From Eledone cirrhosa (lineage: Eukaryota): a stretch of DNA of 64,000 nt. Below the pieces are notes generated by a model. The model was given only the letters and a program-made list of their open reading frames with translations. It made no database searches and was not told the origin of the DNA. The stretch is taken from NCBI GenBank assembly GCA_964016885.1, contig OZ024745.1, positions 130,882,001-130,946,000 on the forward strand, given 5' to 3'. Shown here one piece after another: positions 9,846 to 63,899 of the stretch; within the stretch, counting starts at the first letter, position 1; each line of letters opens with the position of its first letter. The translations under genes and the position numbers were made by a program.

Positions 9846-9939
9846 AATCTCAGCAAACAGGAGGAGATAAGCCGACATGACATGTTTCGCTTTTGTTGAA
9901 GCTTATCAAGGCCAACTACCCCGCCCGTCTGCTGAGATT
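9846..9939 (-). ncRNA. Hammerhead-like motif capping a long rod-like stem
   Basis: Minus strand: TTGATAA-GCTT...AAGC-GAAA-CATG-TC, closed by a roughly 28-bp imperfect stem whose mismatches are mostly G-U pairs on the minus strand. Confidence 0.55.
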
Positions 9940-10330
9940 AATGATGTTATATTCTTATAGAAATCTAGTAAATAATCAGGAGCTGATTATGCAGAGCGGA
10001 ATAAATGTGAAGACTAAAATACAAAGAGGGCTCGATAAGGATAAATATATATCAAATATATAAGAACCGTAGAGCAAATATTTATTAAAATAACAGATTA
10101 AAGTTTAAGCAAAGAGATTGATTTTTTTAGTTTCAGAAGAACCCGTTAAGGGTGAAAGCAGCGATTCTTTGCTTAAACTTTAATCTGTTATTTTAATAAA
10201 TATAATTGATGTGGGATGCTTAAAGCGTCCGTATGCGGTAGGCCGTTTGAGCACTCGATTCTCTGACAGAGCAGAGTATGATATCACATAAGAAACGGAG
10301 AATCAGTGATGCGACGAATTAAAATTTATT

Positions 10331-10427
10331 AGACATATTTCAATTGTTTCTCTGGCGACCAGCTCGAAGCACGATCGATGCAATGATCGAACCTGACTCT
10401 GAAATCGCAAGATCCTCAGATACGTCT
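10331..10427 (-). ncRNA. Type-I hammerhead with long stem II (cleavage site mutated in this arm)
   Basis: Minus strand: AGACGTAT-CTGAGGA-TCTTGCGATT...GGTCGCCAGA-GAAA-CAATTG-AAA-ATATGTCT-AATAAA. The inverted half copy near 10470 keeps GAAA-CGATTG-TA-ATATGTCT. Confidence 0.68.
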
Positions 10428-10657
10428 CGATTCTTCGAAGCATCGATCGTGCCTCGAGCTGGTCGCCAAAGAAACGATTGTAATATGTCTAATAAATTTT
10501 AATTCGTCGCACCACTGATTCTCCGTTTCTTATGTGATATATATATATATATATATATATATATATATATATATATATATATATATATATATATATTAGA
10601 TTGAATGCTCTACTTACTACAGATATAATCTCCCGCTTTTTTAACACACACACATAA

Positions 10658-10840
10658 TAATTGTTTCTACTTTTGGCACAAGGCCAGCAATTTCCCAGTG
10701 TATTACTGGTACTTTATTTTATCGACCCCGTAAGGATGAAAGGCAAAGTTAACCTCGGCGGGATTAGAACTCAGAATGGCAAGGGCCGTAACTCTATGCG
10801 TCAAAGCATGGCGTCCGACCCTCTACCGATACTGCCAATT
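10658..10840 (-). mobile_element. SINE copy
   Basis: Reverse complement of the consensus. Confidence 0.85.
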
Positions 10841-11174
10841 CACAATGAAGTTAAATGATGCAGTGACATGGCCATGCTGATTGTCATCCTATGATTACGA
10901 AGAATACCCCTAGTTTAAGAAAAGGAATAAAATAGATGAAAGTGTTTAACAATATAGTTATGAAGTAAGCAATATAGCCGGAGTATGATTTAGAAAGTGA
11001 ATAATGGATAGGTTGAAAACACTTGGAATGGAAACGATTGAAGGAAAGAAATTGACTAAGCAAGCGATTTCGATTGAATTACAAGAGCTGCAAGAGATTT
11101 GGAAGGATGCGAGCGGTGAGTATCAAACAACACTGACAGGAAATGATAAAATAAAGAGGTAAAAAAGACTATCT

Positions 11175-11400
11175 AGAACAGACTGGACAAAAGAACTCAA
11201 CAAGATGGTAATGAAATGCTACTTCATGGGTGAAAAAGGCAATAAAGGACAGAGAAAACTTATGAAGACAATATGAAACGAAATAAGTGTGTTTCCATTG
11301 ATAGAAGAGAAACATGGAGAGCAGGGAAGATCTATAAAGCAGAATGACTGACTAACTATCCAACCCTAGAAGTAGAATAATTCAAACAGGGATGAAGGTG
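11175..11400 (+). mobile_element. R4/Dong-like LINE N-terminal relic
   Basis: WTKELNKMVMKCYF...GQRKLMKTI*NEI...EEKHGEQGRSIKQND*L resembles the conserved R4-clade ORF start (recalled, not searched). Confidence 0.6.
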
Positions 11401-60416: not shown

Positions 60417-61732
60417 TATATGATATGTCTATATTTTAAATACACGTTTATAATGAAGTGTGTGCTTACACATGCGGTTACAATTTCAGTGTGTACGTAT
60501 GTGTACGTTCACGTGTGAATGTGTGTCTCTGTATGTGTGTGCACTTGTATGTGTGTGCACTTGTATGTGTGTGCACTTGTATGTGTGTGCACTTGTATTT
60601 GTTCATGTGTGTGTGTGCGTGTGTGTTTTATTTTCCGCCTCTATCGAAAACAACAATGATCTCGACCGAAATAGTGCTACAATTCTATAGTTGAAACCCG
60701 GGATATATACATATATATATATATATATATATATATATATATATATATCCACTCCCAAGAGAGAAAACGTTTGATAACAAAGATATATTTGAGATAGAAA
60801 ATTCTTGATAATAATTTCTTACGGGCGAGATAGTTTCCTATTTCCTAATCCACCATCTTTATCATCACTATAACCACTGCCGGCACCACCACCACCACCA
60901 ACACAATCACCATCACCATCTTCATTATCATCAATATTATTATCTTTTCCTCAATCATCATCATCATCATCATTATGATTATCATCAACAACATCCTCAT
61001 ATTAGAAAAATGTATTTCTTTTCGATGTTATCTTTATTTTCTCCTGCCAATATTTTTTTTTAGATTAAAATATACATATGCACGTGTATGCACGCGTGAG
61101 TGTGTGCATGTGTGTGTATGTGCATGTGTGAACACGCGTGTGTGTGTATATATGTGTATATGTGTGTTTTTGTGTATGTGTTAGTGTAAACTGTTATACT
61201 CCCATATCTATATGTATGGCTGATTCTTGTATAGATGGGTCTGTGTGAGTGTTTTACTATATTTGTGAGTGATTATATGTTTTTATTGTGTGTGTGAATT
61301 AGTCTATCAAGCAAAACGGATTATATGGTGAAAATATTAAGTTTAAAACGATTAATTAACTAATACGAAAAGATACTCAAAAACTAGCTCTCATTTCATT
61401 GAAAATTAGACATCTACCGTAAATGCTTAATCTCCCGGACAACACTGTTTCTAGTAATCAAATATACACAAACCGTGTAATGAGGACTTCTTATCAGTTG
61501 TCTAAAGCTGTTTATATATGCTACGAGTGGATGGAACTATCCAAAACAACCACGCGAATAGTTTACCAAACAAAAAGTTTTTCATGCACTTAACGTTTTG
61601 ACACATTGATCGCAGTTACATCTTCTAACTATTCTTTTGATACATAGATTTCTTGAGGTTAAGAAAGAATTCGAAGTGTCGTGTCGAAATACTCTATATA
61701 TAGTGTGTGTGTACATAAATATATGTATGTAT

Positions 61733-62320
61733 GTTGGGTCACTCTTGAGTGCTACTGGTAACATGTAACCCTGTACAACCTGTCGCATGGTCGGCATCCC
61801 CACCAAGTTTACTTGGTGAGGAGGGTGATTTGGGGCACGCTGCAGGGCAAAAGACAAAACCTGACAAAGGGAGGAAAAACTTATAAGAGTCAACGGCCAT
61901 CCAAAAATGTGTAAATATGTAAGTACATGTGTATATATGTATGTATGTATATATGTGCATGTATATGCGCGGCGACAAAGAAATAATCGGGCTAGATACC
62001 CGATCGCGCGGTTAAACCACTGGGAGTGAAGGACCCCTAGCCCTTGTCAGGGCATTCTATTATGAGAAAGCAACTCAGGAAACTGGGATAACTCCGATAT
62101 AAAACCTGCAGCTCAGTAGTAACCGATGATGTTGGTCTTTTCTTCTTTTCGGGTTATAGCTACTGTCGCTCAGTGAATGGGATTGGCTCAGTGCACAGTG
62201 TTTCCTCACTTTAAAAAATATCTTCACGCACAGGCATTGCACGATAGAATTAATTAATAATTATTAATAATGGTATATTATGCAATGGCCATACTCGATA
62301 ACGAGGGGCAGCCATCATGT
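61733..62320 (+). mobile_element. Diverged full-length relative of the 8784-9378 element
   Basis: Same 5' block (GTGCTACTGGTAACATGTA...) and 3' block (GGCCATACTCGATAACGAG...CAGCCATCATGTA), with TATG repeats at both ends. Confidence 0.7.
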
Positions 62321-62446
62321 ATATATGTATGTATGTGTCAGGTCACCAGTTGGTGCTACTATGGGTGGTTGTTGTTGTCCATTGGTCATTGGTACGGGGT
62401 GTAGGGGACCTACAGGGGGGGCGTTATGGGAGGCCTTAACCGGGGT

Positions 62447-63689
62447 TTATCCATATAGCTTGAGGAAAGTTCCCGTCCTTAGGTGTCTGCAAGCACAGAA
62501 TAAGTCGGCCCTTCTGTTTAATAGCTTGGTTCCGCCATGTAGTATCTCGAGTATCTCACTAAGACAGAGGTAGCAAATACCAGATCCGCATCTGTCTGGG
62601 GGAACCTTTCTAACCACGGACCAGACCAGAGAGTGCGGGGTCTTTTCAAGTTTGAGCTTCCAGATCAATTCTGAAAGAGCCGTACATTTCCTCTTATATA
62701 TTCTGTTAAAGGAATGGCGATGGTTATACCACCTATATTTGAAGCTCGTCGCTGTGGATGCTATGTAGTGGTGCTCCGAGTTATGGGTTGTGACCTTGCA
62801 CCTGTAGACTACGTTTTTCGTCATGCGTTCATTACTAAGGGGCCATAGTGATGGGTCTCTGCAATTACATGACTTCTTAAGCTCCACCATATGTACCGCG
62901 TGGTTACCATCACTCGGGGTTGGCTGGGTAGCCTCCGCAATCAGCACAGGGTCGTTGGGTTCCAGTGTGCTAGTTGAGCCTGTCCGGGTTCTGGTGCGTC
63001 CCGCGTGCAGGTTCAGTTGGGTAGCTCCGGGGTTTACGGTGGTATTAGAGGCAGTGAGCCTATTCCTATTTATGCCAGCTGTGTGCTGGGCTACGGAGCG
63101 TGGGGTTGAGTAGGAAAGTTTCACCGTGTGTCTGTTGAATATTTTATGGTACTTGTGGGTCCTAGGGAAACATTTATCCAGTACTCTAAAGAATGTTCTA
63201 TCCAGGCTGGTACGTAGACCCACCGAGTACTGAGGGTTATACCATGTGACCTTCCTGGTCCTATTCTTGCTGGGTTGTTGGGTGTCCGCCGTGGGCCATC
63301 GCGTGGTTGTACACAGCTCAGGTCTAGCTCGGTTGGTGTCACTCAGGTGTGCGGAGCGGTCACTATCATGAGGGTTATATGGGCCCACCGTGGGGCTATA
63401 AACCTGCAAGGTGTGGCCTCCCTGCTCAATTAGGGTTCGGCGGGTGGTGGGGCTGGTGCAGGGGTGCCTATGCTCCGCAGCACAGTAGTCTTCAGCGTTG
63501 TAGGTATTAGACCGGTGGGGTATGCGGGATCTTCTACCAGGGGTGGTGACGGATAGGGGTCTGGGAGTGTTACTACTGGTCACCGAGGTATTAGGTGGGC
63601 GACTCATGCCCCTGAGGGTATTGGTCCGGGGTACCCTTGGGTCATCTCGATCATGTCCCTTAGGGTTGTAGCTGATTCTATGGCTGTGG
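62447..63689 (-). pseudogene. Penelope-like retroelement ORF, C-terminal part: post-RT region plus GIY-YIG endonuclease, 5'-truncated at (TA)n
   Basis: Open frame of about 414 codons containing RKVTWYNPQYS...FFRVLDKCFP...KIFNRHTVKLSYS, then CNC...NVVYRC...YIASTATSFKYRWYNH...TALSELIWKLK...W...CYLCLSE...LLN...CRH. This is the motif set of PLE C-terminal GIY-YIG domains. The RT core is absent, YIG is changed to YIA, and some Cys appear lost. The N-terminal part of the supplied 457-aa ORF is (TA)n read-through. Confidence 0.88.
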
Positions 63690-63807
63690 GATATATATAT
63701 ATATATAGCTGGCATAAATAGGAATAGGCACACTGCCTCTAATACCATGTATATATATATATATATATATATATATATATATATATATATATATATATAT
63801 ATATATA

Positions 63808-63899
63808 CTAAAATTTTCACTCCAACTAATTAGTTTCTGTAATGGGATAAAGATAGTTACGTAACGTAACGTAACTGTCGAGAATTCATTACGTCATCA
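63808..63899 (-). ncRNA. 5'-truncated hammerhead motif between two (TA)n tracts
   Basis: Minus strand: (TA)n-TGATGA-CGTAATG...CATTACA-GAAA-CTAATTAG-TT. Stem III palindrome is ACTAATTAGT. The first C of the core and the 5' strand of stem I are replaced by (TA)n. Confidence 0.6.

What the first reader, a model, noticed from the sequence alone, without database searches (positions are those of the whole stretch)
9846..63899. Unrelated hammerhead families nearly all use a self-complementary stem III
Stem III plus its closing A-U reads ATATATAT (26-51 kb family), ATGATCAT (43 kb), ACAATTGT (59 kb, and as the consensus of the two 10.3 kb arms), ACATGT (9.9 kb) and ACTAATTAGT (63.8 kb). Established: minimal PLE hammerheads with palindromic stem III cleave as dimers. 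Inference: each family has its own dimerisation code, so only like transcripts could activate each other. About 15 motifs in 64 kb would imply a very large genome-wide ribozyme load if this window is typical.
Basis: partly seen in the sequence, partly recalled or inferred. Interest (0 to 1): 0.7.

Follow-up and report, generated by a model that had tools for sequence, protein, structure and literature searches.

The report
Penelope hammerheads with drifting pairing codes
These are real hammerhead RNA motifs in the end pieces of Penelope-type jumping genes, a known pairing, present in an estimated few hundred thousand mostly decayed copies in this animal genome; their self-complementary stem is predicted to let them cut only as pairs and mostly with their own family, but that selectivity likely comes from two helices together and from drift, not from a selected one-code-per-family system.

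Summary
The 15 motifs are there: 9 with an intact core, 1 family-wide core variant, 5 broken. Two readings were wrong: the 9.9 kb stem III is an 11-nt odd palindrome, and the 10.3 kb family consensus pairs through G-U wobbles. The motifs lie in 3' end pieces of Penelope-like elements (PLEs) inserted in (TA)n, often head-to-head; one family ends a Hydra-like coding PLE. In 27 families, 39 of 45 pairs that only a dimer can form are Watson-Crick (shuffle 17). This palindrome is published (Cervera 2014). The 'code' holds only in part: 23 distinct stems among 27 families, three coding PLE families share one, and sharing is not rarer than chance. Stem III plus both stems I make heterodimers predicted unfavourable in 349 of 351 family pairs. 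Load is about 270,000-360,000 motifs, but copies decay neutrally and most lack a same-strand partner. One arm (38.7 kb) is a two-subfamily chimera crossing at the palindrome and cut site (n=1). Cleavage was not tested. The scan noted such hammerheads before, in this genome and others.

The parts
9871..9913 (-). Type I hammerhead, U3:A8 core, 11-nt odd palindrome in stem III; relatives show a two-sided change in it
10281..10540 (.). Head-to-head two-armed insertion of the 10.3 kb family (2050 first-look candidates in the genome)
10332..10426 (-). Full hammerhead of the 10.3 kb family, 7-bp stem I, 62-nt stem-loop II; U16.1 mutated in this copy
10458..10489 (+). 3' half only (5'-truncated arm), stem III as in the family consensus
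26828..26889 (-). Hammerhead of subfamily A2; 96% identical over 275 nt to the inverted end arm of the coding Hydra-like PLE in L044
38664..38719 (-). Chimeric arm: 5' part of subfamily A1, 3' 57 nt identical to subfamily A3; crossover inside the 17 nt shared around stem III and the cut site
38849..38905 (+). Right arm of the same insertion, subfamily A1, G12 mutated
42528..42584 (-). Hammerhead, subfamily A1, short arm of a two-armed insertion
42714..42770 (+). Hammerhead, subfamily A1, long arm with tail (to about 42920); 6889 exact matches to a 33-letter A1 pattern in the genome
43122..43179 (-). Hammerhead of the 43 kb family, left arm of the 43067-43534 fold-back
43426..43482 (+). Hammerhead of the 43 kb family, right arm, one base lost in stem II
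47808..47905 (-). Internally deleted copy of the 10.3 kb family; lacks stem III, resumes within 1 nt of the predicted cut site; single copy
51507..51568 (-). Hammerhead, subfamily A3, long arm
51680..51738 (+). Hammerhead, subfamily A3, arm that stops a few bases after the cut site
59437..59547 (-). Full hammerhead of the 59 kb family with U at core position 9 and an 82-nt stem-loop II (2381 first-look candidates)
59597..59625 (+). 3' half only (arm truncated inside loop II)
62462..63250 (-). Remnant of a PLE C-terminal endonuclease region, Hydra-like by motifs (33% to the ORF in L262); no hammerhead found behind it
63819..63900 (-). 5'-clipped hammerhead of a 541-bp tandem, retrozyme-like family (1876 first-look candidates)

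Best explanation
These are type I hammerhead motifs in the 3' end pieces of Penelope-like retrotransposons and their likely non-coding derivatives, whose short self-complementary stem III is predicted to form only between two copies, so that they would likely cut as dimers, with partner choice predicted to rest on stem III plus both swapped stems I. Shown: motifs, families, self-complementarity at dimer-only pairs, insertion in (TA)n, head-to-head arms with one short and one long end, link of one window family to an RT plus endonuclease ORF. Inferred: a PLE protein starts reverse transcription at two sites 3' of the hammerhead on RNA that is uncut (or re-joined) there and writes two arms; the dimer forms mainly in cis between neighbouring end repeats of tandem source transcripts; each lineage's palindrome drifts by paired changes through G-U intermediates, so family selectivity is a by-product; inserted copies then decay neutrally.
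For: Dimer-only pairs 39 of 45 Watson-Crick plus 3 G-U, null 17.3 +/- 3.6, max 31 in 20,000 shuffles. Predicted monomer stem III hairpins cost +1.0 to +4.7 kcal/mol, dimer helices give -3.2 to -10.5. Two-sided change inside one family; a wobble variant in 14 of 98 copies of the largest cluster. Stem III cross-compatible in 11 of 351 family pairs, both stems I in 4, the whole dimer in 2. Identical stems: 6 pairs against 2.85 (uniform) or 8.2 (composition-biased) expected, so no over-dispersion. L044 holds a 517-aa ORF with Hydra-clade motifs followed by the 26.9 kb family's hammerhead. One long and one short arm in 24 of 27 rows (one row is a mispairing); ends at +70 and +190-193 after the cut site in the 63.8 kb family. 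Arms of one insertion are closer than arms of different ones (0.028 vs 0.050; 0.046 vs 0.083). Private change rates: core 6/477, stem III 5/424, flanks 18/1416 and 26/1850. Published frame: PMC4209133, PMC8557442, PMC11167929.
Against: No cleavage or expression data; no RNA run was listed. Seven of the eight window families or subfamilies were not tied to an ORF. One large family has a non-palindromic 6-mer stem III (11 copies, predicted +2.4 kcal/mol), so self-pairing is not universal. In Anolis the hammerhead needed the PLE protein and was dispensable for insertion in vitro (PMC11167929), so what selects the palindrome is open. Energies are nearest-neighbour sums on majority sequences, without tertiary contacts or protein. 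Families share ancestry, so the 45 pairs are not independent. The over-dispersion test has little power with 27 families. Some loci behind one search were fetched by patterns that cover core and stem III.
Confidence: 0.7

Rival explanations
1. A selected identity code: each active family keeps a private palindrome so that transcripts pair in trans only with their own kind, as the HIV-1 DIS palindrome biases RNA partner choice.
For: 23 distinct stems in 27 families; 340 of 351 pairs are separated by stem III alone; 23 head-to-head pairs within 400 nt are same-family, and of 3 different-family pairs 2 are split by microsatellite and 1 is unclear; no chimera found between two clusters that share stem III but not stem I. 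In the unselected sample 44 of 93 family motifs have no partner within 1.5 kb, so any dimer would be in trans.
Against: Sharing is at or above chance; three coding families share one stem; ATATATAT recurs in at least three clusters; same-family arms follow from one source RNA without any code; most pairs counted came from loci fetched by family; the zero chimera count has low power; solitary copies decay neutrally.
Confidence: 0.12
2. The palindrome is kept as a dimerisation handle that loads two RNA templates on a dimeric PLE protein, one per arm; cleavage is secondary.
For: Two-armed insertions with one start site per arm; the Anolis PLE cuts and extends both strands and is predicted to be a dimer (PMC11167929, parts 1-2); the 38.7 kb arm joins two subfamilies at the palindrome; copies carry the hammerhead uncut.
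Against: Ten diagnostic alleles are mostly shared by both arms, well above random pairing; the two real pairs discordant at two sites involve a hypervariable loop site; the chimera is 1 case against 6889 parental matches and its crossover is also the longest shared stretch; catalytic cores are conserved across families.
Confidence: 0.13
3. The palindromes are chance or DNA-level products (AT microsatellite slippage, fold-back correction), and the motifs work as monomers or not at all.
For: ATATATAT is itself a short (TA)n run and the elements sit in (TA)n; 8- to 11-mers can close a 2- to 4-bp monomer hairpin.
Against: Most stems are not AT repeats (GC-rich 6- and 8-mers); 62 exact palindromes in 102 hits against 11 in 80 shuffled hits; dimer-only pairs are kept.
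Confidence: 0.05

Closest known systems
PLE-associated type I hammerheads of metazoans (Cervera and De la Pena 2014, PMC4209133; Lunse et al. 2017, not held, seen only as a title and in reviews PMC6765202 and PMC6466107)
   Same: Type I topology, short palindromic helix III, many heterogeneous families per genome, U3:A8 core variant, pairs on opposite strands 100-700 bp apart, mostly single truncated copies, proposed dimer action.
   Different: Here helix III is 6-11 nt rather than minimal; several families have 50-115 nt stem-loops II; one has U at position 9; the estimated count is far above the 2,000-9,000 per genome in that paper (different descriptor). I saw no family-by-family cross-compatibility analysis in the parts read.
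Hydra-clade PLEs (Craig et al. 2021, PMC8557442)
   Same: C-terminal GIY-YIG-type endonuclease with CxCX5C linker, CxxC and CxH motifs, no CCHH, canonical hammerhead, (TA)n targets, inverted 5'-truncated copy and a tail at one end.
   Different: Clade placement not tested by tree; the ORF read is 5'-truncated; the tail is 90-120 nt here against 30-40 bp described.
Metazoan non-LTR retrozymes (PMC7229834; preprint 10.64898/2026.07.22.740005)
   Same: Short tandem units with one type I hammerhead each (541, about 422 and 310 bp here), better cleavage expected as dimers, PLE origin.
   Different: Most window families were seen as one- or two-armed fragments, not arrays; circular RNA not shown. 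Axolotl holds 126,247 motifs in a far larger genome.
HIV-1 dimerisation initiation signal (review PMC3187697)
   Same: A short palindrome that differs between lineages and biases RNA partner choice.
   Different: Analogy only: DIS is a kissing loop for co-packaging with measured effects; here the palindrome is part of a catalytic fold, stem I adds specificity, and no effect was measured.

Membership tests
PLE-associated type I hammerhead | Conserved core boxes and UH cut site in type I order | tested here: met
   9 of 15 window motifs intact, 1 family-wide variant at position 9, 5 broken copies of intact families
PLE-associated type I hammerhead | Short palindromic helix III | tested here: met
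   64 of 74 inner pairs Watson-Crick, 3 G-U, over 27 families
PLE-associated type I hammerhead | Lies in the end repeat of an RT plus GIY-YIG element | tested here: inconclusive
   Met for the 26.9 kb subfamily (L044) and several non-window families; not shown for the other seven window families or subfamilies
PLE-associated type I hammerhead | Extra base between positions 9 and 10.1 and a G10.1-C11.1 pair | not tested
   Stem II starts vary by family; not scored
PLE-associated type I hammerhead | Self-cleavage as a dimer | not testable with these tools
   No assay; no RNA holder listed
Hydra-clade PLE (carrier in L044) | C-terminal endonuclease with CxCX5C linker, CxxC and CxH, lacking CCHH; (TA)n target | tested here: met
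   Read by eye in the 517-aa ORF against section 11 of PMC8557442; Pfam gave no hit
Hydra-clade PLE (carrier in L044) | RWK and DKT motifs; placement in the RT tree | not tested
   ORF is 5'-truncated; no reference set in session
Non-LTR retrozyme (63.8 kb family) | Tandem units of a few hundred bp, a hammerhead in each | tested here: met
   541-bp unit repeated head-to-tail in L189, L192, L193, L196
Non-LTR retrozyme (63.8 kb family) | Expressed as linear and circular RNA | not testable with these tools
DIS-like partner-selection code | One private palindrome per lineage | tested here: not met
   4 stems shared among 27 families; sharing not below chance
DIS-like partner-selection code | Recombination or co-use of RNAs restricted to matching palindromes | tested here: inconclusive
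   One chimera between fully compatible subfamilies, none between stem-I-incompatible clusters; too few events

The most novel reading that the evidence does not exclude
Stem III plus stem I act in trans as a DIS-like partner code for Penelope elements: two like RNAs dimerise, are handed to a dimeric PLE protein as the templates of the two arms, and compatible subfamilies swap 3' ends at the cut site by cleavage and cross-ligation, as the 38.7 kb chimera would record.
Probability: 0.1. Interest if true: 0.7.

Novelty: new member of a known kind. Interest (0 to 1): 0.3.

Why it matters
The function of PLE hammerheads is open (PMC8557442, PMC11167929). This genome offers about 30 families with covarying palindromes, a ready set of matched and mismatched pairs for a homo- versus heterodimer assay, and thousands of two-armed insertions to test one or two RNA templates. 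The density (about 100 per Mb) is very high for an animal. But the palindrome and the dimer idea are published, and the data here point to drift rather than a selected code.

Tried and rejected
Rfam at gathering score: nothing. Pfam on 19 window frames: one weak RT hit at 54043-54492; none on the L044 ORF or the 62-63 kb remnant. No RNA holder listed for the 42.6 kb element; DNA contigs laid on 38616-38940 were too short to span the chimeric junction. Chimera patterns: 2 of 3 hits, all 192 hits as far as listed, the 1 hit and all 10 hits were point mutants or another family; one search gave 0. The deleted 47.8 kb copy is unique, so it is not an amplified hammerhead-less subfamily. A-to-G bias in arms as a trace of editing: 19 against 14 T-to-C, no signal. 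5' ends of the 63.8 kb family do not pile up at the cut site. Two-template origin of the 42.6 kb arms: discordant only at two loop sites that also vary singly elsewhere, rejected as evidence. Motif-like hits at 13258(+), 48030(-), 15069(-) and 40757(+) lack good stems; the first two had no relative in the 1.8 Mb pool and the last two are singletons. A genome-wide count of wobble-keeping against pair-breaking stem III variants was not obtained; only the counts bear on it. Lunse et al. 2017 is not held.
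Full report
Setting. The window is G000:C5:130882001-130946000 of a 3.0-Gb animal genome, 36% GC and rich in microsatellites. The label 'octopus' comes from an earlier scan note and my recall of its repeats; I did not test it.

Observation. A descriptor of my own (core boxes, stem II, stem I; stem III register chosen by helix score, not by palindromy) found 10 hits in the window against 0.74 per shuffle. Two stem III readings need correction: the 9.9 kb motif has a U3:A8 core and an 11-nt odd palindrome, and relatives in L274 show a two-sided change in it; the 10.3 kb family has ACGATTGT in 7 of 7 scored copies. 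The 26-51 kb motifs are three subfamilies (A1-A3) of one cluster with different stems II.

What they are. Five window loci are fold-backs with outward-facing hammerheads. Relatives number in the thousands (2346, 2381, 2050, 1876 first-look candidates; 6889 exact matches to one A1 pattern). Junctions between arms vary, ends abut (TA)n, and one arm carries a tail: one long and one short arm in 24 of 27 A1-type rows, one row being a mispairing; ends at +70 and +190-193 after the cut site in the 63.8 kb family, whose unit is a 541-bp tandem repeat. This matches the inverted 5'-truncated copy and one-sided tail of PLEs (PMC8557442, passages) and the two reverse-transcription start sites of the Anolis PLE (PMC11167929, parts 1-2 of 4). 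GIY-YIG gave 10,597 candidates. L044 holds a 517-aa ORF with Hydra-clade motifs followed by the A2 hammerhead, and its inverted arm is 96% identical to the window's 26.9 kb copy. The other window families were not tied to an ORF in 30 + 40 endonuclease loci and the other fetched loci.

Is the palindrome beyond chance? In 990 kb of unselected stretches (99 of 100 asked for), 102 hits held 62 exact palindromes; ten shuffles gave 80 hits with 11 (two tandem arrays supply about a third of the real hits). In a 1.79-Mb pool, partly enriched by targeted searches, 355 hits fell into 27 families with at least two loci, clustered with stem III masked. 64 of 74 inner pairs are Watson-Crick; 39 of 45 pairs that a monomer hairpin cannot form are Watson-Crick against 17.3 +/- 3.6 in shuffles. 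Those counts include two clusters I consider spurious or uninformative. Families share ancestry, so pairs are not independent. One family of 11 copies is not palindromic. The palindromic nature of these positions is stated in PMC4209133 (parts 1-2 of 4 read).

Is it a code? In a double hammerhead, core and stem II of one RNA meet the cut site of the other, so stem III and both stems I are intermolecular (established geometry, PMC4209133 Fig. 1 legend plus inference). For 27 families (the two doubtful clusters dropped, two single-locus multi-copy families added), stem III was within 2 kcal/mol of the homodimer mean in 11 of 351 pairs, both stems I in 4, the whole dimer in 2. G-U intermediates are common (14 of 98 copies in the largest cluster; the 10.3 kb family pairs fully with two others). 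This fits compensatory drift; the test has little power to exclude weak selection.

Genomic traces of hetero-pairing. 23 head-to-head pairs within 400 nt are same-family; of 3 others, 2 are split by microsatellite and 1 is unclear. Arms of one insertion are closer than arms of different ones and share diagnostic alleles, which one source RNA explains. The left arm at 38.7 kb is a clean chimera, 94-95% to A1 relatives over the 5' 110 nt and 100% to an A3 copy over the 3' 57 nt, crossing in 17 shared bases that hold the palindrome and cut site. It is the only true case among 3 pattern hits; the reciprocal and two cross-cluster patterns gave none. Template switching or DNA recombination at the longest shared stretch explains it equally well, and independent contigs did not span it.

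Load. 112 hits in 99 stretches against 9.2 per shuffle give about 360,000 motifs (bootstrap 220,000-540,000), or 270,000 (180,000-380,000) without two array stretches. Stretches were taken at round positions on large contigs, not formally at random. The window is typical. For comparison, 126,247 in axolotl (PMC7229834, passages) and about 9,000 in Xenopus (PMC4209133), by other descriptors. Most copies look inert: private changes are equal in core, stem III and flanks; of 93 family motifs 44 are solitary and 33 of those with a same-strand partner lie in two arrays; read-through of the 42.6 kb element folds into a -240 kcal/mol hairpin over the sense motif. Every full copy runs through the cut site, so its template was uncut or re-joined there (inference).

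Literature. Seven searches showed no paper on a family-specific dimer code for PLE hammerheads or on cephalopod counts; the library lacks most subscription papers and Lunse et al. 2017, known to me only by title and from reviews (PMC6765202, PMC6466107, passages). Also seen: preprint 10.64898/2026.07.22.740005 parts 1-2 of 5; PMC3187697 passages; PMC8557442 section 11. No supplements were read; those of PMC4209133 and PMC8557442 may already list such families.

Verdict. A real, dense and well-sampled case of a known motif class. The code idea is half right as thermodynamics, unsupported as an adaptation, and directly testable. Interest 0.3.

Noticed in passing
window 59437-59547 (-); L151-L165: A family with thousands of candidates has U at hammerhead position 9 (or A9 lost) and an 82-nt stem-loop II; a relative in L037 has the normal core, and a relative of the 10.3 kb family shows the same change.
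   Followed up: partly
window 38612-38790 (-): Two-subfamily chimeric arm crossing at stem III and the cut site; this insertion also has two short arms, against the usual one long and one short.
   Followed up: yes
window 47808-47905 (-): Deleted copy of the 10.3 kb family that resumes within one base of the predicted cut site; single copy in the genome.
   Followed up: yes
window 51680-51740 (+): Arm ends a few bases after the cut site and runs into a microsatellite; the AT-only stem III may itself act as a small (TA)n target or slippage seed.
   Followed up: no
window 62447-63829 (-): 460-aa open frame whose last 260 aa are a Hydra-like PLE endonuclease region; the front part is microsatellite and GC-rich filler.
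   Followed up: partly
window 10078-10203, 55152-55241: Very common short fold-back repeat (78 BLAST rows in the pool) with a hammerhead-like core starting CAGAAGA and a small hairpin; may be one of the rearranged hammerheads that other scan notes describe; not analysed.
   Followed up: no
window 26233-26620, 49413-49543, 51239-51316; 27042-27506: Two further (TA)n-inserted fold-back families (107 and 44 BLAST rows in the pool) with no type I hammerhead hit by my descriptor.
   Followed up: no
L048 281-3381; L114: Tandem arrays of about 310 and 422 bp with one hammerhead per unit: retrozyme-like, the best candidates for cis dimers and circular RNA.
   Followed up: no
L242-L275, L120, L144, L260: Three coding PLE families with different endonucleases all use a U3:A8 core and the same 6-nt stem III.
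   Followed up: partly
L050, L056, L069, L072: Abundant family whose 6-nt stem III has a central purine-purine mismatch in the dimer; a relative has the perfect palindrome.
   Followed up: no
L094 51-5407: A 5.4-kb palindrome at 93% arm identity with nested elements of several families.
   Followed up: no
window 54043-54492 (+): Weak reverse-transcriptase fragment (Pfam RVT_1, E 0.001).
   Followed up: no
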